Origin: Azolla caroliniana
Lineage: Eukaryota > Plantae > Polypodiophyta
Length of the DNA: 64,000 bases
Assembly (NCBI GenBank): GCA_043228905.1
Contig: JBHGNT010000008.1
Span: 16,554,001 to 16,618,000 of the forward strand
Direction: 5' to 3'
Shown here: positions 2,567 through 53,939 of the stretch, piece after piece
Layout of the letters: the number at the start of each line of letters is the position of its first letter
How positions within the stretch are numbered: position 1 is the first letter of the stretch
Notes under the pieces: model-generated
What the model saw: the letters and a program-made list of their open reading frames with translations, nothing else
Database searches by the model: none
Told to the model about the DNA's origin: nothing
Made by a program: the position numbers and the translations under genes

Positions 2567-2584
2567 CATTAGAGTTGATGACGT
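2567..2584 (+). repeat. Left stub of the tRNA-Met array (start of a B subunit, split by LTR element A)
   Basis: cattagagttgatgacg matches the array consensus and resumes as acgcaagttccttgcgcatag at 13783. Confidence 0.75.
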
Positions 2585-3645
2585 TGTCACGAAAATACGA
2601 CGAGGACACATGAACTTGAGGCAGGACCCCGGGGCCTACTACTAGAGGATATCAAATTCGTGCGTTTTTGTATTAAGAATTAATTAATATGACAAAGTTT
2701 GATCAATTTTATTAGTAAAGAAAGAGAAAAATTACAATATGTCCCAAGATTGGGATTCAGAAGTTTAAGGTTTACTAAGATTAATAGAAAAGAAAAATTA
2801 GGGGTTTTGAGAGATATGGCTTCCGTAGGTAAAATTAGGGTTTTTGAGTCTTATGGCTTCCGTAGGGAAAATTAGGGTTTTTGAATCTTATGGCTTCGTA
2901 AGATGAGGGAGAGAAGGAAAAAAAAAAAACATGAAGAGCGCCCGAGTGTTGGAAAAAAATGGAAATTTATATGGGTTTCTTTGTTGATCCCTCCCTTTCA
3001 TGTTCCTTTCCCTCCCCCACTTTTAGTTGCATAGCCTCCATTTTTAGTTGCTTCGCCTCCATTTTTTGTTGCTTTGCCTTTACTTTTAGTTGCATGCGAT
3101 CATTTTGTATAATTCGGCCACATGATCCAAAAATCATCCATAAAGTTCAACCAGTGCGTAATCCGTACGTGCGTTGCAACCAAACCATAGACGCGGCCGC
3201 GGGCGCTCGACCCGACCGCGCCATGTACGTGTCCCGACTTCGTCGTGTACGCATCCGCGCGCTCATTCGCAAACATGCGCGCGTCCCGATCGGGCCGTAC
3301 GCAGTGACTCAAAATCATTTGAGCCATTCATCCACATAGTTTAGCCCAAGTCACCTTGAACATTTTGTGCTTCAGACATAGACATAAAGTAATAGGTTCT
3401 GACTCTCCTTATATAATATGGGATCCAATGTTGTCCTATCTATGTGGGATATCTCATAGTTTTGTTTTTCCCAATCTTCTCAAACTTCACTCTCACATAA
3501 CTTGATACTTATTTATCTGTTTCATACGTAGAAAAATGCATTATAAAGCTCTTGAAGATATCTATCTTCCTATATCAATCCATAAAGCTAATCTTAGATA
3601 CTTATTTTACTAGTTTTCATATCGTGTGTGAAAAACCACACGACA
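2585..3645 (-). repeat. 3' LTR of element A
   Basis: tgtcacgaaaatacg...aaaaccacacgaca, similar to 12732-13782. Confidence 0.9.
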
Positions 3646-3826
3646 TTCACCCCCACCAAACCTGCACATCCACCGATATGTGCCAATTGTATTGAGGTTC
3701 CTCTTTTGATTATTCTACTTCATCGATGTTTCTTCTTTATACCCAAACCGTTGTTTTCCATCCGATCTACCATATTCTTCGCTCACTCTTTGCATTTCCG
3801 TGGCTGGTTTCCATGGCTCCCTTTTC

Positions 3827-5400
3827 TCATGTAGAACATAATGCTTCATGCTTTGTGCATGTGCCACCTTCATCTCGACCATCTCCTTGGTCATCTAACT
3901 TTCTTTTATCATCCTTTCTTGTTCCATGCATGCCTTTCAAAGGATTTATCCAAATAGTATTGTTGAGTACTCTTAGTGGTTCATTCTTCAACTGCATGCA
4001 CATCTCGAGGTCCTTAAGTGAACACATTTCATGCATCTCACTTTTTCTACTTTCGTGGTATACTTTGGAGTTGACCATGCCTTGTTGCACGCACTAGCTT
4101 CAACCGTTGCTTCCTCGCCGCCACTGTCCTTCTCTTGAGTCTTACATCGGTTAATGCCCAAGTCTCTCGAACGAGTGTGGAGGGATCCATACGTTTTCAT
4201 AGTTTGTCTTTGTTGTGCTACCCTTAGCCGCTTCCACCTTATGGTTGTCCGCATTGGGTTTGACCTTTGTTTCTTCGTCGCCACCTTCCATCTTTTGGGT
4301 TTTACATCGGTTAATGCCCAAGTCTCAAGAACTTTTGTGGGGAAAGTCTCTTCATGATCATCGTCTACCCTCTTCATTTTCACGTCTCTCTCTTCTTCGC
4401 ACATGTTAGCTTCGGCCTTCACTTACTCGTCGCCACCTTCCGTCTCTTGGGTCTCACGTTTGCTTTCCGACGCATCTGCCCAAGTTTCTAGAACAAGTGT
4501 GGAAAAAGTCTTGACATGGCCATCCACCATTGACTCGTCCATAACCACCTCTGACTCGATGTCATTTTTCGTGGCTATCTCCTCAATCATGTCGGCCTCA
4601 CACTTTTTATCTCCCTTGATCATGTAAGCTTTGCTCATGCTTGCACCTTTATCAATTGATGTTTCAGACACGATACGTGTTCCAAAATATTTGTCCTCGC
4701 TTGAAGTGGCATTCGCCACCCTCGATTCATTAGTTTCATTCTTCATCATTGTTTCTTTGCAAGACGAGAAGGCGTCTTGTTCCACACCTTTTCCCATGGT
4801 GCTGTTGTACCGAACTTGGGCCTGTGTATTGGCAGTATCATTACTCCACCTTTGTTGGGAAGTCTCTTCTTCCTTGATAACCATTGTAATCGGTTTTGGT
4901 TCCATAATAATATTCTCTTTGGCCTCGAGTTGCACCATTACATTCTAATATGCCTCGTTTATGAAGGCCTATATGTCGAGTACCATCGAACCTTCCCTCT
5001 TCAAGCTCTCTTCTTTAGGTGGTAGTTTGTAGTTGCTTCCTGTCCTCCTTTCACCATCCCTCATGGGTTGTGTTGTTGTTGATGAGAATCTTGTCTTCCT
5101 CTTATCGTGTAGTTGACATATTGTTTCCACTTTCATCTAATCCTCTGTGAGGTCATTTGCACCATCATCATCCTCAAGTCGGATTCCAATGGCCTTCCTT
5201 TCCTTCTGATCGATTGACTTCACAAACATTAGAACTTTATCCACCCCCACCAATCTTTGATCCTGCTCCAAGAGTTGTGCAAAGCGACACTCGAACTCAA
5301 TGAAAGCATGCATGGCTCTCTAGTGGGTCTTCATAGATAAGACCCATTGGTAGAACATGTATAGGTTGCATCTCTTACCTCTTTCTATCTATATGCCTCC
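3827..5400 (-). pseudogene. Degenerate gag-like region and charged low-complexity ORF of element A
   Basis: Minus-strand translation near 5120-5360 (FIEFECRFAQLLEQDQRLVGVDKVLMFVKSIDQKERKAIGIRLED) aligns by eye with gag of B (FESRFRGLSARDQAILAPYKVIMFLRAVDVRDRKDLRVLLED); ORFs 4423-4938 and 3988-4422 follow. Confidence 0.65.
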
Positions 5401-6225
5401 ATGAGATATCCTCCTGCCGCCTCCTCACTTGTGTTGTGTCTCTTGGCGCCGGATCGTTACGTGAGTCGGGTGGGAACCGCTAGGGATTTGGACTAGGAGA
5501 AAGGAGATCGTGAGATAGAGATCAATTATGAGTAAATAGCAAAGAGAAAGATAAGAAAATTGTGAATCACACGAGTATACTATATTAATTGGTACTTAGG
5601 TTGTTAAGAGAGAAGTAGATGCATAAATCGTGAATCCCACGAATAATTTTTGTATTGATCAATACTTAATCCAAAATAACCAACCCTTATACATCTTTCT
5701 CTCCTCCTTATATAAGGACGGAAGAGGCTAAGCATAGCTTCTTGCTTCTCTAAAGTGTTCATGCTCTCTAAATTTGCATGCTTTTCTTTTCCCACTATGA
5801 TTTCCTGAATTTAGCATTCATGCCTGCTAGATGTGCATGCGTAATTTTATTAGTATACATATAAAGTTTTCACGGACTCTAAAAATGCATGACTTACCTT
5901 TTAATAAAGGTAGGCGAAAATAAAGGTTTTATACATATTAAATCTATATTTGAAACACTTAGAATAAGTTAGTATAAGGGTAAGGTTGGAGTTTGTCTAC
6001 GTGGAGGTGCAGGGTTAGAATCCTGCCCTATGCATGTAATAGAAAATTTAATGTTTCTTTTATTTACAATTGTGTCTCTTCATCCCGTAAGAGACTCTCA
6101 CCAGCCTTCTTCATCCAGCTCTTCCTTGCCGATTCCTCCTTGCCGGTTCCTCTTCGTCCGGTTCTCACCGGGTATTTCCTTCTCTATCCGGATGGACAAA
6201 ATGCAATTTCCACGTAGTGTGTAAA

Positions 6226-9200
6226 TTACACTACGACACTCACCCCCTCTAAACCCACACATCCTCCGGTATGTGCCGAAGTTCCCGATGTTCCATATTT
6301 GCCTCCATCCGTATCGCTCTTCGAATCTTCCCTTATGTCGACTACGAGTTGAAGTCCACTTTCTTCGCTATCCGCATCACCGCGATCTTTGTCCGGTTGC
6401 TCCTCATTGTTGGTCTCGTCTATGGCTACATAAGTTTTGTTGTTAGTTTGCTTCTTGAAGATCTTCACCCATTTCCCTGCTATAGGCACTCGTAGTATCG
6501 TTCCATCCAACTCACTTAGTCGGTAAGTTCCGTTGTCGAAAACTTTCTGAACCTCATATGGGCCGAACCACCTTTTTGTGAACTTCCGTACCGTTGTATG
6601 TTGATGATCCAAACTACTGTCATAGAAAATCACCCAATCTCCTTCTTCAATCTTCCGTGGTCGTAGTCAGTGCTTGGTGTCGAACTGGCTTTTGTTCTGG
6701 AGTCGCACTTCTTGTTGTCAGCGTGACGCTTCCGCTACATCTTCTGGTCTTCCCTCCAGTTGTCATATCTAGACCGCTAGTAGTTCTTCCCAGCTCATCT
6801 CTTCCTTCCATGGTAGCATTGTCCATGTCGCGATTGCGGTTTCCGTTGGCATTACCGGTGCTTGTTCGGTCATAAATTCTGCCGACATATAACCGGTTAC
6901 GGAGCTATGCGTCGTCCGATCTGCCCATAGTGCATATGGGAGCATCTGCAGCCAATCCGTCACCCTTCCGTCGCATGCTTTGGCCAGTGCTTTGACGATC
7001 GGACTATGTCCTCGCTCGACCTTCCCGTTGGCTTCCGGATTGTATGCCGTTGTTAGTGTTAACCGAACTCCATGTTTGGCGAAGAATCCCCTAGCTTTAT
7101 CAAAGTCAAGTTCTCCCCGATCCGCAATCACTTGTCCTACGCACCCGTACCTGCAAAACACTTCTTCTAAAAGAAATTGACATACTGCAGAACACGTTTT
7201 TCTTCGTAGCGCCCAACCTTCTACTTGATTTGTGAGATCTTCCTGAGTTAACACCAAGTACTTCTTTTGTCCGATCCCGGTTAGCATGGCTACAATGTCG
7301 ACCATCCATTTGAAGTTGATTGTCGGTGAGAATGTCGGATGGAACTCATCTCGGTGTCGAACTCCGGAGTAGATTTGACACTTCTTGCAGCTTTCCGTGA
7401 ACTCCGCGACATCTTTGTACATATTCTTCCACCAATATCTTTGCTTGATCTTCCCAAATGTTGCCCATGTTCCCCGATGTCCAGTCCAATCAGATTCGTG
7501 AAATTCGGACATTACCTGGTTTCGTTGCTCTTTTGTCCAGACTACTCAAAGTGGTATGCCACCCGGTCTTTTCGGCTCCTTCCATAAAAATCCATTTTTC
7601 AAGAAGAACTTTCAAACTTGCCGTTTCTTACTTCAGATCTCGGCTCTCTTCTCTTTATTGTCCGATGATTCCTCGATTTCTCGTAGTATTTTCCCGATCA
7701 ACAAGCTTTTTCCCTCGTATTCTTCTTCCCGGAATTCTTGGTTTACGTCCACTCGGCATATGTGCTCCAAAGCAAAGTAGTCTTCGGAAACTTCTTCATT
7801 ATCGGATTCGGTTATGTCATCTGCGAACCACGCCCTTGATAGCTTGTCCGCTACAACGTTGTCTTTTCCGGAGATGTGTCTTACCTCTGGATTAAGTGAC
7901 TTAACATACGCAATCCACCTTAGCATAGCCACATCCGGTATAGTACAACACCGCATCATCCCGAGTATCGGAAGACAATCCGTTTCGATCACTACTTCGG
8001 CTCCGATCAAATAATCTCGATCCGATTTTATTGCCGACACGACTCCCCATAATTCTCTTTTGACTTGCACATACCCGCATTGCCTTTCGTTGAGAACCTT
8101 TGCTCCGAATCGGATCGGATATCGCGAACCATCCGAGTCGAGTTGATTGATGACCCATCCGATTCCTGTTGGACTTGTATCAACCGTTACTATAATCGGT
8201 TGGTCATAGTTCGGCTTCTTTAGAGCTTCAGCCCTCTGCAGTGTTTTCTTGAGCTTCCTCATGGCTTCGGTGTGTTCCGGTTTCCATTCGAACTTCTTCC
8301 CCTTCCGCAACAAGTGATAGAGTGGGTCCGCAATATGTGCGTAGTGCGGAATCCATATGTGATAGAATGCACATGCTCCAAGAAACCTTCGGACTTCGGA
8401 TTGTGACTCGCATACTTCTTTCATAGCTTGAATCGCATCAATCTTGGTTGGTGACGGTCTTCGGCCGTAGGGCCCACATAGATGTCCGACTACCAATATT
8501 TCTTCTTGTCCGAATGCCGATTTCTCCCCGGAAAGTGTTAGATGCACATCTTCTAACTTCCGTAACCCTTTCTCACAATCACGGATATGGTTCACTACGA
8601 ACCTTCGGCATCCCCGTTCATCCATAGCTTCATCTATTTCTTCCACTGCACACCCTTTTATCAGAATGTCATCTAGGAACGGCATCGTTATCTCCGGTAT
8701 GCAATCCCGGAGCACCTTGTTCATCGCATTCATCATATGTGCGACTGAGTTCGTCGCGCCTTGTGGTAGCATACACATCCGGACTAATCCTATCGGTGAC
8801 CGCATGGTAGTGATGTCTCGGCTCTCCACGGCTAGTTGGAATTGGTCATATCCGGAGTATAGGTCTCCGATGGAGTATATCGTGCGACCGACAAATGCTT
8901 CCGCAAATTCATCTACTATCGGACCGACTCCGGAATTCCGAATCGTGACCTTGTTCATCGGTTGCAAGTTTTGGATAAATCGGAGTGACCCATTCTTCTT
9001 CGGAACCGTAAACCATCGATTTGAGTACAGAGCGTTTGATGGCTCTAGAATCCCCATCGCCACCTTCTCCTTGAGCAAGTCGATGACTTTCGGAATATGC
9101 GCCCGCGGCACTGGAATCGGCTTCAGGCTCCACGGCACATGGTGAATCGTGAAGATCACCATCGGCTCCACTATCTTCGGATCAACGCACCCTATCTCCT

Positions 9201-11888
9201 TCGATGTGAATGCAAATGCTTTTCCATGTTGTTCCAGCATCTCACGAAACCGTTCTTCTCCTTTTTGTGAGAGGAAACCACCTCCACCGATCCGAAGTTT
9301 CTTCCGGGTCTCATCCAAGAAGGCATGTCCGATATCCACAGACTTTCGAAGTGTTGGATCTCCCGAGACTTCTTTCCTCTTTTGTTTGCTATCGGCGGGT
9401 AGCGGTCCTGCGGCCGGTTTCACTTTCTTCTCCACGGTCTTGTACTTCGTACTTACCATTACTTCTTCTTTGCGGAACTCATTTGGCCCCATTTTCGCAA
9501 TGATCTCGTACATCTCGACCGATTCCACCGGGACTACTTGGTCTTCTTGGTTTTTACACTCCACAAGCTCTTCAAGCCGTTGTAGCGTGCTCCCATAGAA
9601 CACTTCTTTGACTACACCCACGATTTCTTCATCTTCTTTTATTATTGATGCCGACCATAACTTACTCTTTACCTTTCAGTATTCTTTCTTCATTCCTCCG
9701 GCTACGGCTACGTACGTTGAATCCCCATCCGGACCGATTTGTACTTGTTTTGTTCCGAGAGTCTTCTTCCTGTGTGGGGTATCAGGACTTCTCGGACTAT
9801 CACTTCCCCACTCCGCAATAGTCCGATCTAAAAATCCATCTTCATTTGGGACAAGAGCTCCCTCTTGTTCCTTTCATGATTTGCTGGCACCATTAGGAAT
9901 TGGACGGATTTCCCTCCGTTTTGGCTCCGAATTCGCGCAAAAGCCGCACCGCTATCGAGCACCTTCGTCTCCATCTGTGATGCCGTGATAAAGGGTTGCC
10001 CGAGGATCACGGAGTGTGAGATCTCATCTTGCACGAAGAAATTTTGGTCTATCTCCACATCCCCGATCTTCACCACAACATCCGGACAAGCCGCAAATAG
10101 TTCTTCCGTTGCTTTAGTTGCTGCCCGGATCTTCCACCCATGATTCGTGTTAATAGGCCACTTACCCTTCCGGTAGAACTCCTTGGACATCAAGTTGATC
10201 TCCGATCCATGATCAATCAATGCTAGCACGGGCTCTTTGATGTTACCGATTCGGACCGGAGTCTCCGTAGTTGCGCGTGCCTATTGTGGCTTTCTGTAGT
10301 GAGAATTCGGTATTTCGTCCTCCAATTCGGTGTCATTCATTAGAATGGTATTTGCATTCACCCTTGGAGCATTCTCCACCGTACTTTGCCTTTTTCTCTT
10401 CACGAGATCCACAAGAAGATCGTGGAACTCCTTCTTCGTTATTCCAAGTAATTCTCGAAGCGAAAAATCTACCCGGTTATCGAGGATTCTCTCCTCGAAC
10501 ACCTTTTTCAAGTCCATTTGTTGTTCAATGTCCGAGGCGAGCTTGAATGCCGGAATCATCTTTTCTTTTCCCTTACCTCCAGAGTTCTAGCTTTCCGGTG
10601 TCTTCGATGGACCGGCCGCCTCATTCGTGCGCCGTCGCTTCTCATTTACATACACTTCATGCAATTGGCATAAAGCAAACACGCTATTCTTATCCACGGG
10701 GCACTCCCATCCTGTAGCTTCACAGATGCTTTCCGCGGTGCTTCGGATCTCATTGGAGTCGGTTTTCTTGGGGTTTCCTAGCATATCCGGCCAAATAGAC
10801 GCCTTTGCTCCCGACGACTCACCCACACTTATTCCCGTGGTTGTCGCATAATTACCTTTTTCCGCTATTTCCTCCTCTAGAACATTCTTCATGCCACCTT
10901 TCCTGAAGTTCGGTCGGAGTGGCTTCCGAGAGTCCATCGATTGAATCTGATTTCCCTCGTAGTAGATAAGATCCCATCGTAACGCCTCCTTGTGCTCGTT
11001 GCAATCCCTCCGATCGTATTCAGTACTGTCACACCATATACATCGACGGTCCATATACTTGGAGTTTGTGGGACGGTTTCCCGACTTCTTCACCATCGCG
11101 ATTTTCAGATTCTCCATATCTTTAAGCAACTGCTCCACCGTGGTTGCATCAATCCCCTTCTCGGTCGTAGTCTCTCGAGCCCGCAGTTGATGGTCCTCCA
11201 CTCCAGATTTCAGTTTCGGAATCGGCTCCAAAACCCTCTTCTCTTCGTTAGCCAACCACTATCCCCTCTTTGTGTATCGCGCAACGATATCCCGCACGCT
11301 TTCCCACGTTTCGGTGAGGCCGCTTTCGGTGGTCGTGTCCTCCAGAAGCACTCTGAGATCTTTCCGGTCCCGGACGTCTACGGCTCGTAAGAACATGATA
11401 ACTTTGTACGGTGCAAGGATAGCTTGATCTCTCGCGGACAGCCCCCGGAACCGACTTTCGAATGACGAAAACACTTCGAGGACCTTCAGCCCCTTACCTG
11501 GCGTTTCCACCCAATCTTCGAATCCCCTCCGCGTTGGCTTGGAGGAGTCCTTGATGGCGAATGTGGTCTTTAACGCTTCTTTAAATGCTTCCCACGTCGG
11601 ATTTTGTTGTTGTAACCCGTGCATACTCCCTTGAAGCCCATCGGTCGCCACCTGATTGAAGGATGTCACTTCCAGTCCTTCTGAAATCCGACATCGGAGC
11701 ATCTTTGCCTTGTCGTCCTTCAAATATCGCGACACATCCTTATTGTTGAATTGCCCGTTGCGTTGCCCGAGCCGCTCTACTGCTACTGAAATCTCCGACA
11801 TCGCGTGTTGTTCTTGTAGCATCCGCTCGAACATTGCCATCATATTGTTAGCTTGTTGATTCTCCATCTCCTTACCACCCGTATTCAC
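6226..11888 (-). pseudogene. gag-pol of element B, interrupted by stops and frameshifts
   Basis: gag 11888-10587 (CIWCDSTEYDRRDC knuckle-like); protease LIDHGSEIN (9828-10229); RT LPQGATNS...FLDD and RNase H VDTS...ETDC (7633-9621); integrase H-H-C-C, IADRG, NGKVE (6769-7512); GPY motif (6226-6633). Confidence 0.92.
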
Positions 11889-11901
11889 GTCGGGTTCACC
11901 A
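11884..11901 (-). promoter_or_regulatory. Primer-binding site for tRNA-Trp
   Basis: Plus strand ttcacgtcgggttcacca equals the 3' 18 nt of plant cytosolic tRNA-Trp including CCA; the same motif is at 20330-20347 and 48943-48960. Confidence 0.85.
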
Positions 11902-12731
11902 CTTGTGTCGTGCCTCTCGGCGCTGGTTCGTTACGTGAGTCGGGTGGGAACCGCTAGGGTTTTGGACTAGGAGAAAGGAGATCGTGAGATAGAGATCAAT
12001 TATGAGTAAATAACAAAGAGAAAGATAAGAAAATTGTGAATCACACGAGTATACTATATTAATTGGTACTTAGGTTGTTAAGAGAGAAGTAGATGCATAA
12101 ATCGTGAACCCCACGAATAATTTTTATATTGATCAATACTTAATCCAAAATAACCAACCCTTATACATCTTTCTCTCCTCCTTATATAAGGACGGAAGAG
12201 GCTAAGCATAGCTTCTTGCTTCTCTAAAGTGTTCATGCTCTCTAAATTTGCATGCTTTTCTTTTCCCACTATGATTTCCTGAATTTAGCATTCATGCCTG
12301 CTAGATGTGCATGCGTAATTTTATTAGTATACATATAAAGTTTTCACGGACTCTAAAAATGCATGACTTACCTTTTAATAAAGGTAGGCGAAAATAAAGG
12401 TTTTATACATATTAAATCTATATTTAAAACACTTAGAATAAGTTAGTATAATGGTGAGGTTAGAGTTTGTCTACGTGGAGGTGCAAGGTTCAAATCTTGT
12501 CCTATGCACGTAACAGAAAATTTAATGTTTCTTTTATTTACAATTGTGTCTCTTCATCCCGTAAGAGACTCTCACCGGCCTTCTTCATCCAGCTCTTCCT
12601 TGCCGATTCCTCCTTGCCGGTTCCTCTTCGTCTGGTTCTCATCGGGTATTTCATTCTCTATCCGGATGGACAAAATGCAATTTCCACGTAGTGTGTAAAT
12701 TACACTACGAGAACGTCGGGTTCACCAAAGA

Positions 12732-13782
12732 TGTCGCAAAAATACGACAAGGACACGTGAACTTGAGGCAGGGCCCCGGGGCCTACTACTAGTGGATATC
12801 AAATTCGTGTGTTTTTGTATTATGAATTAATTGATATGACAAAGTTTGATCATTTTTATTAGTCAAGAAAGAGAAAAATTACAATATGTCTGAAGATTGG
12901 GATTCAGAAGTTTTAGGTTTACTAAGATTAATAGAAAAGAAAAAATAGGGGTTTTGAGAGATATGACTTCCGTAGGGAAATTTAGGGTTTTTGAGTCTTA
13001 TGGCTTCTGTAGCGAAACTTAGCGTTTTTGAGCCTTATGGCTTCATAAGATAAGGGAGAGAAGGAACAAAAAAAAATGAAGAGCGCTCGAGTGTTGTAAA
13101 AAAAATGGAAATTTATATGGGTTTCTTTGTTGATCCCTCCTTTCATGTTCCTTTCCCTCCCCCACTTTTAGTTGCATGGCTTTTAGTTGGATGGACTCCA
13201 TTTTTAGTTGCTTGGCCTCCTTTTTTAGTTGCTTCGCCTTTACTTTTAGTTTCATGCGACCGTTTTGTATAATTTCGCCACATGATCCACAATCATCCAT
13301 AAAGTTCAGCCACTGCGTAATCCGTACGTGCGTCACAACCAAACCATAGACGCGTCCGCGTGCGCGCATCTTGACCGCCCCATGTACGCGTCCACGCGCT
13401 CGTCGACACAAACACGCGCGTCTCGATCGGGCCGTATGTCGTGACCCAAAATCGTTTGAGCCATTTATCCACACAATTTAGCCCAAGTCACCTTGAACAT
13501 TCTGTGCTTCACACATAGACATAAAGTAATAGGTTATGGCTCTCCTTATATAATATGGGATCCAATGTTGTCCTATCTATGTGGGATATCTCACAGTTTT
13601 GCTTTTCCCAATCTTCTCAAACTTCACTCTCACATAACTTGATACTTATTTATCTATTTCATGCGTAGAAAAATGCATTATGAAGCTCTTGAAGATATCT
13701 ATCTTCCTATATCAATCCATTAAGCTAATCTTAAATACTTATTTTACTAGTTTTCATATCGTGTGTGAAAAACCATACGAGA
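12732..13782 (-). repeat. 5' LTR of element A
   Basis: tgtcgcaaaaatacg...aaaaccatacgaga; preceded by the PBS remnant. Confidence 0.9.
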
Positions 13783-14228
13783 ACGCAAGTTCCTTGCGCA
13801 TAGAACATATACCTCTTGACGTATCCTCACGTGGAGAATTCAAGCCCCTCCCACGCCATCCTCAAAAGCCCAATCTCCCCAATCCCTAGCTCCTATTATT
13901 TCGATTGTAGTTCTTTGTTGTTCTCCCCTTATGATCTTGAATGTCATGGGAACAAAACATATGCTACCTTGCATTTTATCCGCCCTCAAGGGTGAACCTA
14001 TATTCACTAATACACGACTTTCTACAAATCTCTACAATTTAATCTCACATGACTTTGTAAATATTTTCCCTGGGTCTAGGTCTAATCTATGGATGGACTC
14101 TTACTATCTAATCCATTGGAATCATTGCTTTTTAGGCATCCTAGATTAGAAATTTTGAGTTTCTCTCAGTTATTTTTCATCACAATTTTAGATAAAATAG
14201 GTATTTCTCTAAGTAGAGCTACATATCA

Positions 14229-14315
14229 CGGGTGATGGCATAGTTCTCTAGTGCGTAAGTCTCATAAGTCTTGAGATATATTCAGAGGTCGAGAAATGAA
14301 GGCTCTGTCACCCCA
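14229..14315 (+). pseudogene. tRNA-Met(CAT) pseudogene
   Basis: cgggtgatggcatagttctctagtgcgtaagtctcata...tcacccca; D loop and B box mutated. Confidence 0.75.
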
Positions 14316-14683
14316 TCCACGTAACCATGATCTCTTCAATCATTAATTCATATCATGTCGATTGTTGATGATCCCTAATTTTCTTCAATGTCATGGGAAC
14401 ACACCACATGCTACATGGCATTTTATCCACCTTATCAGTATATCCACATGCTATATTCAGTAATACACCACTTTATGCAAATCACTCCCAATTTAAATTC
14501 GCATAATCTTGTGAATATTCTCTATGGGTTTAGAACTAAAATTTGGATGGACTCTTACTACTTAATACATAGGTATCATTGCTTTGTAGGCATGCTAGCT
14601 TTGAAATTTTGAGCCTCTCTCAGGTGTCTTTCATCACAATCTCAGATAAAATAGGTCTTTCTCCGATGTAAAGCTACATATTA

Positions 14684-14768
14684 GGGGTGGTGGCGTAGTT
14701 GGCTAGCATGTAGGTCTCATAGTTCATGACATATCCTCAAGTGGAGACTTAAAGCCTCTCTCACCCCA
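14684..14768 (+). pseudogene. tRNA-Met(CAT) pseudogene, intermediate between A and B types
   Basis: 5' end ggggtggtgg as in the canonical plant gene; 3' half tcctcaagtggagacttaaagcc resembles the B subunit. Confidence 0.75.
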
Positions 14769-35932: not shown

Positions 35933-36011
<79 letters not shown>

Positions 36012-37200: not shown

Positions 37201-37206
37201 AACTTG

Positions 37207-43268: not shown

Positions 43269-44522
43269 TATATGCATGTATGTGGTATGCATGTGTGACG
43301 TGTGTTATGTTCGTGTGTGTAAGTATGTATGCATATATTGTATTGTATTGTACATATGGAAGGTGTGTATATGTGTATATATATAATATGTACTTTATTT
43401 TTTTGTGTTTGGTTTGTATATTTGCATTTGTATACAATTGTGTGTATAATACTATATGTGTGTAATATGTAATATATAAAATATGTTTGTGAGAATGTCT
43501 ATGTATATATGTAATATGTCTTTTCTATGTATGTATTATGTATACTCCTTGTCAATATATATGGCCAATTCTAATATGTATGTAGTCATCCATATATGTA
43601 TGTGTATGTACATATTTACATATGGTAATACATATTTCTACATATATTTATGTTTAGTCAGTATGCATGTATAAATGGGTGTAATGTATGTATATACATA
43701 TTCATGAATGTAATGTTTGAATGTAGGTATATGCATGCATGTATATGTATGTATGTATGTATATGTATGTATGTATGTATAAATGCTACTTCAAATTTGA
43801 GTACTATTTGTATAATATATTCTTTACTATCTCATTGAAATATCTATTATTTCATGGGCTTATGTAATTCTTTTTTCTAACATAATTGATAATACCCTTA
43901 TGTAAATATAATCTCAAATCTTTATTAATACCTTTATATATATATATATATTCTATATCTCACTTATTAATTTAAACCCCTTTTGATGAACTCACGTGCT
44001 ATCATACAAGTTTTGACAGTGAAGCCCCCAGGGGTAAAATGAGGACGTTCCTAGACATACGCATTAGAGTTGATGACGTAGGTTCCTTGCGCATAGATCT
44101 GATTGCTCTTGAAATATCCTAACGCGGATAATTAAAGCCCCTCGCACGCCATCCTCGTAATCCCAATCTCCCCAATCCTTAGCTCTTATCATTTCCATTG
44201 TCGTTGTTTTGTGTTCTCTGCTTATGATCATCCATGTTGTGGGATCACAACACATGCTAAATGGCATTTTATCCATCCTCAAGTGTCGACCTATATTCAC
44301 TAATACACCACTTTCTGCAAATCCCAACCAATTTAAATTTGCATGACCCTATGAATATTCTCCCTCGGTCTCAATCTAATATGTGGATGGACTCTTACTA
44401 TCTAATTCATAGGTATCATTGCTATTTAGGAATCCTAGGTTAGAAAATTTGAGCTTCCCTCAGGCATCTTTCATCACTATCTATGGTAAAATAGGTGTTT
44501 CTCTGTGTAGAGCTACATATAA

Positions 44523-44607
44523 GGGTTGATGGCGCAGTTGGCTAGCGCGTAGGTCTCATAGCTCTTGAGATATCCTGAAGTCAAGAGTTCAAGCCTCTCT
44601 CACCCCA
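44523..44607 (+). pseudogene. tRNA-Met(CAT) copy with acceptor and T-stem mismatches
   Basis: gggttgat... and aagag/ctctc. Confidence 0.8.
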
Positions 44608-45413
44608 TCAACAACATCATGGTCTCTACAATCATTAATTCCTTTCATGTCAATTTGTGTTCTTCTCTAATATTCTTCAATGTCATGGGATAATAACACA
44701 TACTCATGTCATTTTATCCTCTCTATGAGACAATCTATATTTAGTACCACAACTGCATTCCTAATTTAAGCTCGCATGACTATGTGAATATTCTCGGTCG
44801 CAATATTCGTACCATAAGGGTGGTATCTTACTTAAGTAATCTATACTTATTACTGGTGTAACGTCATCATAAATTTGAAATTTAGTGATGGTCTCACCGA
44901 TTTTCTATTACCACGTGTATAAGGTAAAATTAGGATGCTCCTAGATATACACATTAGAGTTGATGACGCTGATTCCTTGCGCATAGATTTGATTTCTCTT
45001 GACGTATCCTCACGCGGAGAATTAAAGCCCCACTCACGCCATCCTTGTAATCCCAATCTCCCCAATCCTTAGCTCTTATCATGTCGATTGTCGTTGTTTT
45101 GTGTTCTCCCCTTATGATCTCTCCATTGCATGGGAACACAACACATGCTAAATGGCATTTTATCCACCCTCAAGTGTTGAGCTATATTCACTAATACACC
45201 ACTCCCTGCAAATCACTCCCAATTTAAATTTGCATGACCCTATGAATATTCTCCCTCAGTCTCGGTCTAATATGTGGATGGACTCTTACTATCTAATCCA
45301 TAGGTATTATTGCTTTTAAGGCATCCTAGGTTAGAAATTTTGAGCTTCCTTCAGACATCATTCATCACTATCTAGGGTAAAATAGGTATTCCTCCTTGTA
45401 GAGCTCGATATGA

Positions 45414-45498
45414 GGGGTTATGGCGTAGTTGGCTAGCGCGTAGGTCTCATAGCTCTCGAGATATCCTAAGGTCGAGAGTTCATTCCTCTCTCAACCCA
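45414..45498 (+). pseudogene. tRNA-Met(CAT) pseudogene
   Basis: Acceptor ggggtta/tcaaccc is broken; T loop mutated. Confidence 0.8.
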
Positions 45499-46308
45499 TC
45501 CACGAAATCATGGTTTCTACAATCATTAATTCCTATCATGTCAATTTGTGTTCTTCTCTAATTTTCCTCAATGTCACGGGAACATAACACATACTCATGG
45601 CATTTTATCCACCCTGTGAGTCAATCTATATTCAGTACCACAGCTGATTTTGCAAACCAGTCCGAATTTAAGCTTGCATGACTATGTGAATATTCTCGGT
45701 CGCAATATTCGTACCATAAGGGTGGTATCTTACTTAAGTAATCTATACTTATCACTGGTGTAACATCATCATAAATTTGAAATTTAGTGATGGTCTCACC
45801 GATTTTCTATTATCACAGGTATAAGGTAAAATTAGGATGTTCCTCAATATACGCATTAGTGTTGATGACGCAAGTTCCTTGAGCATAGATCTGATAGCTC
45901 TTGACGTATCCTCACACGGAGAATTAAAGCCCCTCGCACACCATCCTCGTAATCCCAATCTCCACAATTCGTAACTCTTATCATGTTGATTGTCATTGTT
46001 TTGTGTTCTCCGCCTATGATCTTCCATGTCATGGGAACACAACACATGCTAAATACCATTTTATCCACCCTCAAGTGTCGACCTATATTCACTAATACAC
46101 CACTTTCTGCAAATCACTCCCAATTTAAATTTGCATGACCCTATGAATAATCTCCCTCAGTCTCAGCCTAATATGTGGATGGACTCTTACTATCTATTCC
46201 ATACGTATTATTGCTTTTTAGGCATCCTAGGTTAGAAATTTTGAGCTTCCCTTAGACATCTTTCATCACTATCTGTGGTAAAATTGGTGTTTCTCCGTGT
46301 ACAACTAC

Positions 46309-49300
46309 GAATTTGTGCAAAAGCCGCACCGTTATCGAGCACCTCCGTCTCCATCCATGATGTTTTGATAAAGGGTTGCCCGAGGATCATGGAGTGTGAG
46401 ACCTCATTTGAATAAAGAAATTTTGGGTTATCTCCAAATCTCCGATCTTCACCGTGACATCCGGACAAGGCGCAAATAGGTCTTCTATTGCTTTAGTGGT
46501 TGCCCGAATCTTCCATCCATGATTAGTATTAATAGGCGACTTCCCCTTCTAGTAGAACTCCTTGGACATCAAGTTGATCTCCGATCCGTGATCAATCAAT
46601 GCTAGCACGGGCTCTTTGATGTTGCCGATTCGGACCGGAGTCTCCGTAGTTGCACGTGCCCAATGTGGCCTTGTGTAGTGGGAGTTAAGAATTCTGTCCT
46701 CCAAGTTGGTGTCATTCATTAAAACGGTATTTGCATTCACCCTTGGAGCATTTTCCTCCGTACTTTGTCTTTTTCTCTTTACGAGATCCACAAGAAGATC
46801 GTGGAACTCCTTCTTCGCTATTCCAAGTAATTCCCGAAGCGAAAATTCTACCCGGTTATCGAGGATTCTCTCCTTGAACACCTTTTTCAAGTCCGTTTGT
46901 TGTTCGATGTCCGAGGTGAGCTTGAATGCCGAAATCATCTTTTCTTTTCCCTTCCCTCCGGAGTTCCAGCTTTCCGGTGTCTTTGATTGTCCGGTTGCAT
47001 GCGCCGTCGTTTCTCGTCTATATACACTTCATGCAATTGACATAAGGCGTACACGCTATTCTTATCGACGGGGCACTCCCATCCCGTAGCTTCACGGATG
47101 TTTTCCGTGGTGCTTTGGATCTCATTGGAGTTGGTTTTCTCGGGGTTTTCCGGCCAAAAAGACACCTTTGCTCCTGATGACTCACCCACACTTATTCCCG
47201 CGGTTGTCGCATAATTACCTTTTGCTGATATTTCCTCCTCTAAGACCTTCATGCCGCCTTTCAGGAAGTTCAATCGGAGTTGCTTCTGAGAGTCCATTGA
47301 ATGAATCTGATTTCCCTTGTAGTAGATAAGAGCTCGTCGTAACGCCTCCTTGTGCTCGTCGCAATCCCTTCGATCATGTTCGGTGCTATCACACCATATA
47401 CACCATATACTTGGGACTTGTGGAACGGTCATTCGACTTCTTCACCATCACGATTTTTAGATTCTCCATCTCCTTCAGCAACTGCTCCACCGTGGTTGCG
47501 TCGATTCCCTTCTCGATCGTAGTCTCCCGAGCCTGCGATTGATGGTCTTCCAATCCGGATCTCGGTTTCGGAATCAGTTCCGAAACCCTCTTTTCTTTGT
47601 TAGCAAGCTATTACCCCCTCATTGTGTATTGTGCGATGATATCTCGCACATTATCCCATGTATCGGTGAGGCCACTCTCGGTGGTCGTGTCCTCCAAAAG
47701 CACTTCAAGGTCTTTCCAGTCAGGGACGTCCACGGCTCGTAGGAACATGATCACTTTGTCCGGTGCGACGATAGCTTGATCTCTCGCGGACAACCTCCCG
47801 AACCGAATTTCGAATGCCGAAAACACATCGAGGACCATCGAATCTTCGGCATTTCCACCCAATCTTCGAGCCCTCTCCTCGTTGCCTTGGAGGAGTCCTC
47901 GATGGCGAACGTGTTCTTTAGGGCCTCTTCAAATGGTTCCCATGTCGGATTTTGTTGTCGTATTACATGGATACTCCCTTGAAGACTGTTGGTCGCCACC
48001 CAGTTAAAGGATGTCACTTGTAATCCTTCCAAAATTCCACATCGTAGCATTTCCGCCTTGTAATCTCGCAAATACCGCAACACATCTTTCCCATTGAATT
48101 GCCCGTTCTGTTGCACGAGCCGCTCTTCTACCGCCGCAATCTCCAACATTGCGCTGTCGTAGTGTATTCCACACACTACGTGAAAACCATAAAATAATAT
48201 GTCCGATTTTAGATACATATAAATAAATAAATAATATATCAAAAGAATTTATCACGTGCATATGGCAGGATTCAAACCATGCACCTCCACGTAGATAAAC
48301 CCCAACTTTACCATTGTAATAACTTATCTTTAATGTTATAAATATAGATTTAATACGTATAAGACCTTTATTTACACATACCTTTATTAAAAGGTAAAAA
48401 TCATGTATTCTTTAGAGTGTGAATATTTTATTTACACGTGACATTAAAAGTGACTCATGCACATCTAGCGTGCATGAGCCCTATATTTAGGAAATGACAA
48501 AGAATCACATGCACATTTAGTGTGCATGGACACTTTAGGTGAAAAAGCATGAAGCCATGCTTAGCCTCTTCCATCTTTATATAAGGAGGAGAGAAATATG
48601 TGTAAGGTTGTTGATTAATATACAAGTTTGGATCAATTTAATATATTCGTGGGATTCACAAATTTTGCCATCTAATTGCTCTAATAATCTAAATATTGTT
48701 TTAATTACACTAAACTCGTGGGATTCACGAGATTGCTATCTTACTTCTCTTTCCACTATTCATAACTAGCCTTAAGTTGTATTCCTCTTCCTCCTAGTCA
48801 AAAACCTCGACGGTTCCCACCCGACTCACGCAACGATCTGGAGCCGAAGGGCACGACAGCGCGTTGTTCTTGTAGCATCCGCTCGAACATCACCATCATG
48901 TTGTTAACCTCTGGTTGAATTTCCATCTCCTTGCCACCCGGTTTCACGTCGGGTTCACCACTTGTGTCGCGCCTTTCGGCTCCGGATCGTTGCGTGAGTT
49001 GGGTGGGAACCATTGAGGTTTTTGACTAGGAGAAAGAAGAATATGGGATAAGGCTAGTAATGAATAGGTAAAAAGAGAGGTAACTTATGAATCTCGTGAA
49101 TCCCACAAGTTTAGTGTGTTTAATCAATATTTAGATAGTAAGAGACAATATAGATGACAAATTCGTGAATCCCACGAATATATTATATTGGTCAATCCTT
49201 ACAAAATAATCAACAACCATATACATCTTTCTCTCCTCCTTATATAAGGATGGGAGAGACTAAGCATAACTTCCTGCTTTTTCTAGAGTGCGTGACATGC

Positions 49301-49667
49301 TTTTTCTACTGTGCTTTTATTCCTAAATATAGTGCCAATGCACTCTAGATGTGCACAACTATTTTTTTATTGGTTTATATTTCTCTTGTAAATAAAGTAT
49401 TCACGCCCTCTAAAAATGCATGATTTACCTTTTAATAAAGGTAGGCATAAATAAAAGTCTTATAGCTATTAAATGTATATTTATAACAGTTATGACAAGT
49501 TAATACAATGGTAAAGTTTTGGTTTATTTACATAGACGTATAGGGTTCGAATCTTGCACTCTACATGTAATAAATATTTTAATATTTACTTTTATTTATA
49601 TATATGTACTTAAATCGAATATATTATTTTTACATTTTTCACATAGTGTGCGGACTACACTACAACA
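46309..49667 (-). mobile_element. Duplicate of element C fragment 2 (antisense solo LTR 48155-48858; 5' LTR 48965-49667)
   Basis: Near-identical to 17715-21054. Confidence 0.93.
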
Positions 49668-50067
49668 ACGCGGAGAATTAAAGCCCCTCTCACGCCATCG
49701 TCATAATCCCAATCTCCCCACGCCTTAGCTCTTATAATGTCGATTGTCGTTGTTTTGTGTTCTCCGCTTGTGATCTTCCATATCATGGGAACACAACACA
49801 TTCTAAATGGCATTTTATCTGCCCTCGAGTGTCGACCTATATTCACTAATACACCACTTTCTACAAATCACTCCCAATTGAAATTGGCATGACCCTGTGA
49901 ATATTCTCCATCGGTCTCGGTCTACTATGTCGATGGACTCTTACTATCTAATCCAAGGTATCATTTCTTTTTAGGCATCCAAGGTTAGAAATTTTAACCT
50001 TCCCTCACGTATCTTTCATCACTATCTATGGTAAAATAGGTGTTTCTCCATGTAGAGTTACATATAA

Positions 50068-50152
50068 GGGGTGATGGCGCAGTTGGCTAGCGCGTAGGTC
50101 TCATAGCTCTTGAGATATCCTGAGGTCGAGAGTTCAAGCCTCTCTCACCCCA
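50068..50152 (+). tRNA. Elongator tRNA-Met(CAT) gene with 11-nt intron, structurally intact
   Basis: Identical to 21455-21539. Confidence 0.9.
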
Positions 50153-50929
50153 TCCACGACATCATGGTCTCTGCAATCATTAATTCCTATCATGTAAATT
50201 TGTGTTCTTCTCTAATTTTCTTCAATGTCATGGGAACCATTGCATTTTATCTACCATGTGAGTCAATCTAGATTCAGTACCACAACTACCTTTGGAAACC
50301 ATTCCTAATTAAAGCTCGCATGACTATGTGAATATTCTCGGTCGCAATATTTGTACCATGAGGGTGGTCCCTTTCTTAAGTAATCTATACTTATGACATG
50401 TGTAACGTCATCATAAATTTGAAATTTAGTGATGGTCTCACCGAATTTCTATTATCACAAATATAAGGTAAAATTCAGATGTTCCTAGATATACGCATTA
50501 GAGTTGATGACGTTGATTCGTTGCGCATAGATCTGATTGCCCTTGAGATATCCTCACGTGGAGAATTAAATCCCCGCTCATGCCATCCTCATAATCCCAA
50601 TCTCCCCAATCCTTAGCTCTTATCATGTCGAGTGTCGTTGTTTTGTGTTCTGCCCTTACGATCTTCCATTGCATGGGAACACAACACATGCTAAATGGCA
50701 TTTTATCCACCCTCAAGTGTCGACCTATATTCAGTAATACACCACTTTCTGCAAATCACTCCCAATTTAAATTCGCATGACCTTGTAAATATTCACCCTC
50801 GGTCTCGGTCTAATATCTGGATGGACTATTACTATCTAATCGATAGGTATCATTGCTTTTTAGGTATCCAAGGTTAGAAATTTTGAGCTTCCTTGAGGCA
50901 TCATTCATCACTATCACTATCACATATGA

Positions 50930-51288: not shown

Positions 51289-51823
51289 TTTTTATTTGTG
51301 ATGTGTTGGTGTAATGGTAATGGGGGGACACTCCAACCGCTGGAGGCTCGAGTCTCCTCACACCAACATACAAGTGGTACCTGAAAAGGGCGGTTTGTGC
51401 CCGTAAGTGACGGCGACACAAATGGTGACAGTGAAGGGTGGTTTGTGCCCGTAAGTGACGACGACGCATATGGTGATGGTGAAGGGCGGTTTGTGCCCGG
51501 TTTCGGCCTGTAAGTGGCGACGACGCAGATGGTGACGGTGAAGGGCGGTTTGTGCCCGTAAGTGACGGTGACAACAATGACAGTTTCGACGATAAAGATG
51601 GTAAAATGTAGCCTGTCTACAAGTTGCATGATGGAACGTGATGGCGTGAGTCTCATCACATCTCCTAGAGGTTATCTTGTGCATGTATCACACTCGTACC
51701 ATGCGGTACACCCCCTGATGGACTATGTACTGCTAATAAGACATGACTTCGTGTGAGTTGTAGCCTTTGGGCGAGCCAAAGAAAAAAAAATACAAAGTAC
51801 TATCTCCAAATGGGGGAAAAAAA
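51289..51823. mobile_element. Unclassified ~535-bp GC-rich insertion with four ~48-bp tandem repeats
   Basis: Interrupts the array at gtcatcat|aaatttgaaa; unit gaagggcggtttgtgcccgtaagtgacg.cgac.ca.atggtga.ggt; T-run at the left end, A-run at the right end. Confidence 0.7.
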
Positions 51824-52364
51824 TAAATTGAAATTTAGTGATGGTCTCACCTATTTTCTATTATCACAGGTATAAGGTAAAATTAGGACGTTCCTAGATA
51901 TACGGCTTAGAGTTGATGACGCGGATACCTTGCGCATAGATCTGATTGCTCTTGACGTATCCTCACGCGGAGAATTAAAGCCCCTCTCACACCATCCTTA
52001 TAATCCCAATCTCCCCAATCCTTAGCTCTTATCATGTCAATTGTCGTTGTTTTGTGGTCTCCGTTTCTGATCGTCCATGTCATGGGTACACAACACATGC
52101 TAAATGGCATTTTATCCACCCTCAAGTGTCGACCTATATTCACTAATACACCACTTTCTGCAAATCAGTCCCAATTTAAAATTGCATGACCCTGTGAATA
52201 TTCTCCCTCCGTCGGGGTGTAATATGTGGATGGACTCTTACTATCTAATCCATAGGTATCATTGTTTTTTAGGCATCCTAGCTTAGAAATTTTGAGCTTC
52301 CCTGAGGCATCTTTCTTCACTATCATGGTAAAATAGGTGTTTCTCCGGGTAGAGCTACATATAA

Positions 52365-52449
52365 GGGGTGATGGCGCAATTGGCTAGCACGGAGATCTAT
52401 TAACTCTTGAGATATCCTGAGGTTGAGATTTCAAGCCTCTCTCACCCCA
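52365..52449 (+). pseudogene. tRNA-Met pseudogene with anticodon destroyed
   Basis: ggagatctatta replaces gtaggtctcata. Confidence 0.8.
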
Positions 52450-53346
52450 TCCACGAAATCATGGTCTCTACAATCATTAATTCCTATCACGTTGATTTGA
52501 GTTCTTCTTTAATTTTCGTCAATGTCATGGGAACATAACACATACTCGTGGCATTTTATCCACCGTCTGAGTCAATCTATATTTAGTATTATAGCTGCTT
52601 TTGCAAACCATTCCGAATTTAAGCTCGCATGACTATGTGAATATTCTCGGTCGCAATATGCCTATCATGAGGGTAGTCTGTTACTTATGTAATGTATACT
52701 TATCATTGGTGTAAAGTCATGATAAATTTGAAATTTAGTGATGGTCTCACTTATTTTCTATTATCACAAGTATAAGGTAAAATTAGGATGTTCCTAGATA
52801 TACGCATTAGAGTTGATCATGCAAGTTCTTTGCGCATAGATCTGATTGCCCTTGACGTATCTTCACACGAAGAATTAAAGCCCCTCTTAGGCCATTGTCC
52901 TAATCCCAATTTCCCCAATCCTTAGCTCTTATCATGTCGATTGTCGTTGTTTTGTGTTCTCCCCTTATGATCTTCCATGTCATGGGTACACAACACATGC
53001 TAAATGGCATTTTATCCACCCTCAAGTGTCAACCTATATTCACTAATACACCACTTTCTACAAATCACTCCCAATTTAAATTCGCATGACCCTGTGAATA
53101 TTCTCCCTCGGTCTCGGTCTAATATGTGGATGGACTGTTACTATCTAATCCATAGGTATCATTGCTTTTTAGGCAACCTAGGTAAGAAATTTTGAGCTTC
53201 CCTGAGGCATCTTTCATCATTATCTATGGTAAAATAGGTGTTTGTCCGTGTAGAACGACATATAAGGGGTGATGGCGCAGTTCGCTAGCGCATAGGTCTC
53301 ATAGCCATGGGAACATAACACATGATACATGGCATTTTATCCACCC

Positions 53347-53939
53347 TTTCTGGAACATTACTAAGACAAGGAGGAAATTAGTAGTACAAGATCTGAATTA
53401 GTACTAAGAGAGAGAAGAGAGTGTAGAACTCATGAGAGAAGGCGAGAGAGAGAGAAAGATGATACTAAAAGATATATTATATTATATTATATTAAGAGTA
53501 AGTACAAGCTAAACGATGAGGCTTAAGACTAGAGTTGAACCGATTTGGTTCGAAATAATGCCTTGTGCGCCCTTGTATAGTGTTTTCAGGAGTACTCCTA
53601 AAGTTTCTAGAATTTTCTAGAGAAATTTGGATATATATATCATATTTCTAAAGTTAAATAATAAATGAAAATAATATTTTAATGGCAAGGGCTCAACCCA
53701 TGTAATATAAGGTCATGGGTTCGAATCTTGCCATATCATGTTCCGCGTCATTTTGGATTGAGGACCCAGTTTTTCTGGATATTGATGATGGAAGTCTTCA
53801 AGAAGAGCACTACCATTGGTCACATTCTCTATTGATTCCCAAGTACACTAACTAGGGCTATATCCTAGCCAATTGACCAAACAATAGAGCTTGTTGTGAA
53901 CAATCTTGGAATATAGGATGGTGGAAATCTCATACTCAA
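53347..53939 (-). mobile_element. Element G, 3' piece: chromovirus LTR remnant plus chromodomain
   Basis: EYEISTILYSKIVHNKLYCLVNWLGYSPS; ttctaga-rich LTR; joins 63154 as GPE|YE once H is removed. Confidence 0.75.

What the first reader, a model, noticed from the sequence alone, without database searches (positions are those of the whole stretch)
2567..53347. Tandem array built from intron-containing tRNA-Met genes, with a 900-bp intact-plus-dead dimer unit
Seen: what looks like anonymous satellite carries a full 85-nt elongator tRNA-Met(CAT) gene with an 11-nt intron every ~900 bp. At least four copies (21455, 24143, 50068, 50930) fold into complete cloverleafs with A and B boxes. Halfway between them is a gap-free but consistently degenerate copy. 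About 27 heads span ~11.6 kb of array once insertions are removed. Established: plant elongator tRNA-Met genes have introns; tRNA clusters are known (Arabidopsis Pro and Tyr/Ser clusters, Entamoeba arrays); tRNA genes act as chromatin boundaries at S. pombe centromeres. Inference: intron retention argues for DNA-level amplification rather than retroposition of mature tRNA. This could be a tRNA-derived higher-order satellite with a structural role (centromeric or a TFIIIC-binding array), or a tRNA/tRF source. I do not know of a described plant tRNA-Met satellite, but I cannot search to confirm that.
Basis: partly seen in the sequence, partly recalled or inferred. Interest (0 to 1): 0.85.

Follow-up and report, generated by a model that had tools for sequence, protein, structure and literature searches.

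The report
Nested tRNA-Met array: one intact, fossils
About 13 tandem repeats in a plant genome (likely a moss or other seed-free plant) each carry one methionine tRNA gene plus at least three decayed copies of it, and a second array with unrelated spacers has the same design, so this is likely a tRNA gene cluster that was copied in nested rounds and is now decaying into satellite-like DNA, not a centromere repeat.

Summary
In detail: 27 tRNA-Met heads (13 A, 14 B) lie in 11.7 kb of array, and exactly the four named copies are intact cloverleafs. The 900-bp unit is deeper than reported. It holds four sure tRNA-derived heads and possibly six (about 150 → 450 → 900 bp). The A lineage took 0 exon changes since the dimer formed; B took 18 of 74. 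That points to a working gene at amplification. Units now differ by 7-15%, C>T is about fourfold higher at CG/CHG, retrotransposons split the array, and 7 of 11 A heads are damaged. Contig depth in three runs suggests tens of units, not a large satellite, so a centromeric role is unsupported. A second array (L007: 1.2-kb unit, one intact plus three dead tRNA-Met heads, unrelated spacers) turned up, and its family is in two runs that also hold this array. Both arrays have a late terminator (about +64). Verdict: a new variant of plant tRNA gene clusters; expression untested. The scan had not noted this on other DNA.

The parts
2567..2584 (+). Left stub of the array: 5' end of a B head, cut by LTR element X
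   Evidence: Continues at 13781 with a 4-bp near-duplication ACGT/ACGC
2585..13780 (.). LTR element X (LTRs about 2585-3649 and 12732-13780, K2P 0.086) with nested Ty3/gypsy element Y (5430-12710, LTR K2P 0.031)
   Evidence: Self-BLAST, Pfam RT/RNaseH/integrase in Y, LTR distances
13781..15809 (+). Array block 1, the most diverged units: B 13774, A-like 14230, A/B mosaic head 14684, B 15173, A 15629
   Evidence: 11-20% from other units; 14230-14683 is A-like over its first ~150 bp and B-like from ~200 on
16985..17714 (+). Array block 2 (D, B 17265, E, C) between two fragments of a Y-like retroelement
21055..24560 (+). Array block 3: four A heads (21455, 22355, 23241, 24143), period 886-902 bp
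21455..21539 (+). Reference A head: intact elongator tRNA-Met(CAT) gene with 11-nt intron (21493-21503); first TTTT 64 nt downstream
   Evidence: Rfam 52 bits; pair check; fold; terminator distance
21315..21399 (+). C head (decayed tRNA-Met, 140 bp upstream of A); 15 copies in the window
   Evidence: Consensus 46/85 gap-free, p = 0.0005, the floor of 2000 shuffles
21760..21844 (+). D head (decayed tRNA-Met, 140 bp upstream of B; sister of C); 10 full copies
   Evidence: Consensus 43/85 gap-free, p = 0.0005
21900..21984 (+). B head (dead tRNA-Met: A box, B box, stems and anticodon broken); 14 copies or parts
   Evidence: Consensus 65/85; 8 broken pairs beyond the shared 31-39 and 7 lost invariant bases
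22059..22143 (+). E slot (B+159): possible fifth head; its homologue F in the other half would be the sixth
   Evidence: Marginal: 35/85, p = 0.008; 3' 50 nt p = 0.009, whole head p = 0.13; F not significant alone
24143..24227 (+). Intact A head with a compensated D-stem pair (C11T with G24A)
24561..44032 (.). 19.5-kb insertion flanked by a GGTAAAA direct repeat, with degenerate inverted ends and nested LINE-like, gypsy and copia pieces
   Evidence: Junctions; Pfam; DNA-transposon reading is inference
44033..46308 (+). Array block 4 (A 44523 and 45414, both damaged)
45579..50238 (+). Recent ~4.6-kb duplicate of 16985-~21620, including the 3.3-kb retroelement fragment, about 1% diverged
   Evidence: Sliding identity
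49668..51288 (+). Array block 5 with intact A heads 50068 and 50930
51823..53347 (+). Array block 6 (A 52365 dead, A 53266 cut after 40 nt); ends against repeat-like DNA, so the array may resume beyond the window

Best explanation
This is a local tandem cluster of an intron-containing elongator tRNA-Met gene with a nested higher-order unit, likely built by rounds of unequal crossing-over in which one copy per unit likely stayed functional while its neighbours decayed, and it is now likely methylated, mostly silent and decaying. Steps: (1) a gene with its flank was duplicated in tandem (shown for C and D; inferred for E and F, which would make the monomer about 150 bp); (2) the extra copies died and the 450-bp block doubled; (3) one of the two live genes (B) died while A stayed unchanged (shown by relative rates); (4) the 900-bp unit was amplified in a burst to about 13 units here and likely tens per genome (star-like distances shown; copy number rough); (5) transposons broke the array and CG/CHG C>T changes now erode the heads (shown; methylation inferred). 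The three independent intact A genes could still be read by RNA polymerase III into a precursor of about 140-150 nt with a 53-64-nt trailer (predicted, untested).
For: A consensus differs from a singleton gene (L005) at 2 of 74 exon sites, both shared with B; B differs at 20, C at 33, D at 34; the two halves' spacers differ at 93 of 353. P(0 changes | 13%) = 3e-5, Fisher 2e-6. After amplification, A heads carry 34 changes against 63.8 expected by context (31 against 45 counting each allele once, P = 0.016), the lowest 85-nt window of the unit. C>T rates are 0.146 (CG), 0.140 (CHG) and 0.038 (CHH). Units are 7-15% apart, left-edge units up to 20%. An A/B mosaic unit and a 4.6-kb duplicate show crossing-over. 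Contigs of four runs from four studies lie on the unit. L007 repeats the design with unrelated spacers. Arabidopsis clusters are CG-methylated and silent (PMC7544208, passages) and grew by unequal crossing-over with diverged ends (PMC2886086, passages).
Against: No expression or chromatin data. Gene conversion among A heads or from unseen donor genes could mimic selection. Copies share ancestry, so the P values are optimistic. All 11 A heads checked lack a T-run within 50 nt, whereas 22 of 23 fetched loci have one at +2 to +19, which may mean poor transcription even when young. The 150-bp layer is marginal: F fails alone and the flanks upstream of A and C are not detectably homologous (p = 0.19). 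No whole genome was available, so locus number and position are unknown.
Confidence: 0.68

Rival explanations
1. A maintained, conditionally expressed tRNA-Met reservoir, like the Arabidopsis Ser-Tyr-Tyr cluster: silent in most cells, switched on in some, with dead heads as spacers.
For: A heads stay more conserved than the rest of the unit after amplification; 4 of 11 are intact, one by a compensated pair; a second family with an unchanged head (0 of 49 against 94 of 1036) is in two of the same runs; the SYY cluster is reactivated in root cap cells despite methylation (PMC12308677, abstract).
Against: 7 of 11 A heads are damaged; the array is broken by at least five insertions; terminators are late.
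Confidence: 0.17
2. A structural satellite (centromeric, or a TFIIIC-binding boundary array).
For: Real higher-order structure with sub-repeats near nucleosome length; transposon-dense setting; intact A and B boxes every 900 bp in some units.
Against: Depth suggests tens of units; no ongoing homogenisation; B, C and D have lost both boxes; plant tRNA genes are reported as excluded from centromeres and a barrier role as not described in plants (PMC13578239, section 21).
Confidence: 0.07
3. A wholly neutral amplification of already dead genes; A heads look conserved only through gene conversion from working genes elsewhere.
For: Late terminators; most heads damaged; tRNA-Met heads with other flanks are plentiful in the runs and could be donors (loose ends).
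Against: A carries its own intron, A7 and A57; none of the 23 fetched loci has A7 or this intron, and B shares A7 and A57, so the variants are older than the dimer and were not overwritten by standard genes.
Confidence: 0.06
4. A tandem array of a tRNA-derived mobile element (SINE or TRIM-like).
For: tRNA head, 64-nt tail and T-run resemble a short SINE.
Against: The intron is kept, the head is a near-perfect gene, all copies are tandem on one strand with none dispersed in 64 kb, and no target-site duplications flank units.
Confidence: 0.02

Closest known systems
Arabidopsis Ser-Tyr-Tyr (SYY) array of 27 triplet units (PMC2886086, PMC7544208: passages; PMC12308677: abstract)
   Same: Tandem tRNA genes amplified at DNA level as a multi-gene unit by unequal crossing-over; diverged ends; some pseudogenes; heterochromatic and CG-methylated.
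   Different: SYY units hold three recognisable genes. Here each unit holds one near-intact gene and three to five fossils of the same gene in fixed slots, graded in age; the isotype is elongator Met; transposons split the array.
Plant tRNA homoclusters: Pro, Cys (Arabidopsis), Ile and Ala (maize), Gln, and the Ile/Cys and mixed repeats reported for the bryophyte 'Cpu' (PMC12652284, PMC11700998, PMC13437025: passages and section 10)
   Same: Single-isotype local arrays of tens of copies, also in a bryophyte.
   Different: No Met array is named in the passages read. Two of these surveys state that pseudogenes were removed, so fossil heads would be invisible to them. The supplement of PMC12652284 could not be read and may list Met pairs.
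5S gene-plus-pseudogene repeat units of amphibians (newt: PMC2111863, abstract; Xenopus oocyte 5S DNA: recalled)
   Same: A polymerase III gene and a dead copy are amplified together as one tandem unit.
   Different: 5S not tRNA; one pseudogene per unit; those arrays are transcribed, here unknown.
Proposed tRNA origin of small plant tandem repeats (Benslimane et al. 1986; title seen in the reference list of PMC4411372, paper not held)
   Same: Satellite-like monomers derived from a tRNA gene.
   Different: Here the intact ancestor and a graded series of decayed monomers lie in the same unit, so the origin can be read directly; copy number is small.
Entamoeba tRNA arrays (PMC2652664, abstract in search listing)
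   Same: tRNA genes in tandem array units.
   Different: Those hold most of the genome's tRNA genes, over 10% of the genome, with short tandem repeats as spacers; this is a small local array whose spacers are partly dead tRNA genes.

Membership tests
Plant elongator tRNA-Met gene | Cloverleaf passing the tRNA covariance model, CAT anticodon | tested here: met
   7 heads at 35-52 bits; 4 of 11 fully paired
Plant elongator tRNA-Met gene | Intron at 37/38 and G1:C72 (initiator has A1:U72 and no intron; recalled) | tested here: met
   11-nt intron, exons 72 of 74 identical to singleton L005; splice-substrate fold
Plant elongator tRNA-Met gene | T-run terminator close behind the gene | tested here: not met
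   First TTTT at +64 (7), +105 (3), +53 (1) of 11 heads; +2 to +19 in 22 of 23 fetched loci. A late terminator exists, so this lowers but does not exclude activity.
Plant elongator tRNA-Met gene | Transcribed and spliced in vivo | not testable with these tools
   No raw RNA reads were offered
Plant tDNA homocluster | Same-isotype genes within 1 kb of each other (PMC12652284) | tested here: met
   21455-22355-23241-24143 and 50068-50930
Plant tDNA homocluster | At least 5 genes within 5 kb (PMC13437025) | tested here: not met
   At most 4 Rfam-passing heads in any 5 kb, because insertions split the array
Higher-order repeat | Sub-repeats within a unit differ more than whole units from each other | tested here: met
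   Halves differ at 93 of 353 spacer sites; units differ by 7-15%
Centromeric satellite | Very high copy number in long homogenised arrays | tested here: not met
   Depth ratio about 20-28 (rough); star-like 7-15% divergence
Centromeric satellite | CENH3 binding, centromeric position | not testable with these tools
   No genome or ChIP data
tRNA-derived SINE | Dispersed copies with target-site duplications, intron-less head | tested here: not met
   No dispersed or minus-strand copy in the window; intron kept; genome-wide not tested
Dicistronic tRNA-snoRNA gene (recalled for plant tRNA-Met) | A C/D snoRNA between the tRNA and the T-run | tested here: not met
   No + strand snoRNA match up to E = 10; trailers fold no better than shuffles, z 0.11 and 0.28

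The most novel reading that the evidence does not exclude
In this plant lineage elongator tRNA-Met genes repeatedly seed higher-order arrays in which selection keeps exactly one live gene per unit while its fossils serve as spacer, and the live genes share a late terminator at about +64 that gives a long-trailer precursor. The arrays would be a regulated, normally silent tRNA-Met or TFIIIC-binding module and a direct record of how a tRNA gene becomes satellite DNA.
Probability: 0.2. Interest if true: 0.75.

Novelty: new variant of a known kind. Interest (0 to 1): 0.5.

Why it matters
The idea that plant satellite monomers come from tRNA genes dates from 1986 but usually rests on weak likeness. 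Here the intact gene and fossils with 20, 33, 34 and possibly 44 of 74 exon changes sit in one unit, so each step from gene to satellite-like DNA can be ordered. The same one-live-plus-fossils design in a second family suggests a repeatable route that surveys filtering out pseudogenes would miss. The A7, A57 and intron variants make expression directly testable. If the array is silent it is an instructive case of gene birth and death, not new biology.

Tried and rejected
No whole genome is held, so genome-wide copy number and position were not measured. No RNA holder was listed, and two guessed-RNA contig sets laid nothing on L007; neither blank is evidence on expression. tRNA-snoRNA dicistron: rejected. 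14230-14683 as a surviving ancestral 450-bp monomer: it is A-like then B-like, so a recombinant fits better. A 1.8-kb higher unit suggested by autocorrelation is not borne out by unit distances. Homology of the flanks upstream of A/B and C/D: not detected (p 0.19-0.72). Common origin of window and L007 spacers: not detected (p 0.30-0.73 in 4 of 4 comparisons). Literature: ten searches found no description of a plant tRNA-Met array with fossil heads; the library lacks most subscription papers, Benslimane 1986 was not held, and the supplement of PMC12652284 was unreadable. The moss satellite survey PMC6302065 has no mention of tRNA. Earlier scan notes: nothing by sequence, place or exact words; only prokaryotic cases by looser words.
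Full report
Observation. The window holds six blocks of one tandem repeat, 11,685 bp in all, all on the + strand. ARAGORN finds 8 tRNA genes in them and Rfam passes 7 at 35-52 bits. Of 11 full-length gap-free A heads, 4 keep every stem pair and invariant base (21455, 24143, 50068, 50930); 7 do not. The heads at 14230 (small insertion) and 53266 (cut after 40 nt) were not in that check. 21455 and 50068 belong to one 4.6-kb duplication about 1% diverged, so there are three independent intact genes. The start at 2567 is a stub of a B head split by an LTR element.

Identity of the gene. A scan of metagenome contigs with a pattern for this intron type returned 23 loci. 22 are single tRNA-Met genes with no further head nearby, apart from one next to a tRNA-Val. 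The array's A consensus differs from one of them, L005, at 2 of 74 exon positions, G7A and G57A. G7A turns a G-U pair into A-U, and A57 also occurs in L019. The precursor folds with the anticodon paired to the intron and a 3-nt bulge at the 3' splice site. Introns in land plants are confined to elongator Met and Tyr (PMC13578239, passages). One thing is unusual: the first run of four T lies at +64 in 7, +105 in 3 and +53 in 1 of 11 heads, against +2 to +19 in the 22 singletons (16 distinct 3' flanks among the 23 loci). The trailer is no known snoRNA and is not structured.

The unit is deeper than a dimer. 140 bp upstream of the A and B positions lie further gap-free heads, C (15 copies) and D (10 copies), at 39-47 of 85; background outside the array has mean 20.8 and maximum 40. 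Single copies touch that maximum, but the consensus heads score 46 and 43 of 85 with p = 0.0005, the floor of 2000 shuffles. A fifth slot, E, at B+159 gives spacings of 159, 157 and 140. It is marginal: p = 0.008 gap-free, p = 0.009 for its 3' 50 nt, 0.13 for the whole head, 0.018 for block against block. F, its partner in the other half, is homologous to E (z = 19) but not significant alone, and flanks upstream of A/B and C/D show no detectable homology. So four heads are shown and six are possible. The hierarchy 450 → 900 is shown; 150 → 450 is likely.

Selection or conversion on the A lineage. Both A variants are shared with B, so A has had 0 exon changes since the halves split and B 18 of 74, while the halves' spacers differ at 93 of 353 sites. 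The chance of 0 at the spacer rate is 3e-5. After the 900-bp unit was amplified, A heads still changed less: 34 against 63.8 expected from context-specific rates, or 31 against 45 when each allele is counted once (P = 0.016). These counts drop the mosaic head 14684 and one member of each duplicated pair; with 14684 the count is 46 against 71. B, C, D and E heads show no significant deficit (P 0.10-0.48). Copies share ancestry, so the P values are optimistic, and conversion among A heads cannot be told from selection here.

Present state. Units are 7-15% apart with no closer neighbours except the duplicate; left-edge units reach 19-20%, as at the ends of the Arabidopsis array (PMC2886086, passages). 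C>T changes run at 0.146 in CG, 0.140 in CHG and 0.038 in CHH, the pattern expected of methylated plant DNA (inference). At least five insertions break the array. The LTRs of the element that splits the leftmost head differ by 8.6%, so that end is older still: several million years at recalled plant rates. The right end meets repeat-like DNA and the array may resume beyond the window.

Other genomes. 10 of 13 listed runs, from 5 studies, hold part of the array, under two organism labels and one leaf metagenome; the best holds 0.46 of the words and one may be the window's source. I laid 4 of the 10. Contigs cover 28-30 of 30 bins of the unit. Most long variant contigs sit near one depth per run (medians 44, 9.6 and 20), and summed depth over the spacers is 28, 22 and 20 times that. 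The tool warns that summed depth is no copy number, and overlaps inflate it. I use it only for order of magnitude: tens of units, not thousands. The closest named relatives of the nested retrotransposon are from Riccia (65%) and Adiantum (63%); unnamed ones reach 93%. The host is thus likely a seed-free plant. I lean to a bryophyte; an earlier scan note on this genome says likely a fern.

A second array. L007, the 23rd locus, has a 1,212-bp unit (two copies 89% alike) with one intact tRNA-Met head (Rfam 51.4 bits), three decayed heads and homologous spacers between them. Its intron is 10 nt, its spacers are unrelated to the window's, its head is unchanged between units at 0 of 49 sites against 94 of 1036 elsewhere, and its first T-run is at +65. 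Contigs of runs X1 and X3 cover 27 and 29 of 30 bins of this unit, and in X1 two contigs join the end of the laid stretch back to the head. So the genomes behind both runs likely carry both families. The matching terminator distance may be chance; there are only two cases.

Mechanism. Tandem duplication of a working gene makes redundant copies that decay. A longer block with one live gene becomes the new unit of unequal crossing-over, and the cycle repeats. The mosaic unit at 14230, the mosaic head at 14684 and the 4.6-kb duplicate show such exchange. Methylation and transposon insertion now erode the array. Arabidopsis clusters are silenced by DNA methylation (PMC7544208, passages), and one is reactivated in root cap cells (PMC12308677, abstract), so a conditional role stays open at about 17%. 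A centromeric role is unlikely: low copy number, no homogenisation, and plant tRNA genes are reported as absent from centromeres (PMC13578239, section 21).

Known and new. tRNA clusters in plants, including a bryophyte, are known (PMC12652284, PMC11700998, passages; PMC13437025, passages and section 10). Gene-plus-pseudogene units are known for amphibian 5S DNA (PMC2111863, abstract). A tRNA origin of plant tandem repeats was proposed in 1986 (title only, in PMC4411372). Ten searches found no plant tRNA-Met array with graded fossil heads, but the supplement of PMC12652284 could not be read and may list Met pairs. I rate it a new variant of a known kind, interest 0.5.

Noticed in passing
L007:2616-4923: A second tRNA-Met higher-order array: 1,212-bp unit, one intact and three decayed heads, 10-nt intron, spacers unrelated to the window's; its family is in runs X1 and X3.
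   Followed up: yes
loose ends on window 21455-21543 and L007 3663-3747: Many contigs carry tRNA-Met heads with yet other flanks, several without a nearby T-run, and depth over the head is several times that over the spacers: more tRNA-Met families or arrays may exist in these genomes.
   Followed up: no
window 660-2560: Broken gene with a DUF7869 domain (E = 8e-16), likely a transposase relic, with an internal 84-bp tandem duplication; it abuts the left end of the array.
   Followed up: partly
window 15810-21054 and 46309-49667: Rearranged relatives of element Y: internal pieces followed by an inverted and then a direct LTR-like copy (about 78% alike), with 730 bp of array between two adjoining internal pieces in the first copy.
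   Followed up: partly
window 24561-44032: 19.5-kb insertion with a GGTAAAA direct repeat and degenerate inverted ends (likely a DNA transposon) holding LINE-like, gypsy and copia pieces and long TATG-rich tracts with a 194-bp period.
   Followed up: partly
window 51289-51822: 534-bp insertion in a D head with 48- and 59-bp internal repeats and no Pfam match.
   Followed up: no
L016:1401-1562: A tRNA-Val(TAC) gene ends 4 nt before a tRNA-Met gene, a possible dicistronic tRNA pair.
   Followed up: no
window 58854-59492: Three copies of a 211-bp repeat at 96% inside a gypsy gag region.
   Followed up: no
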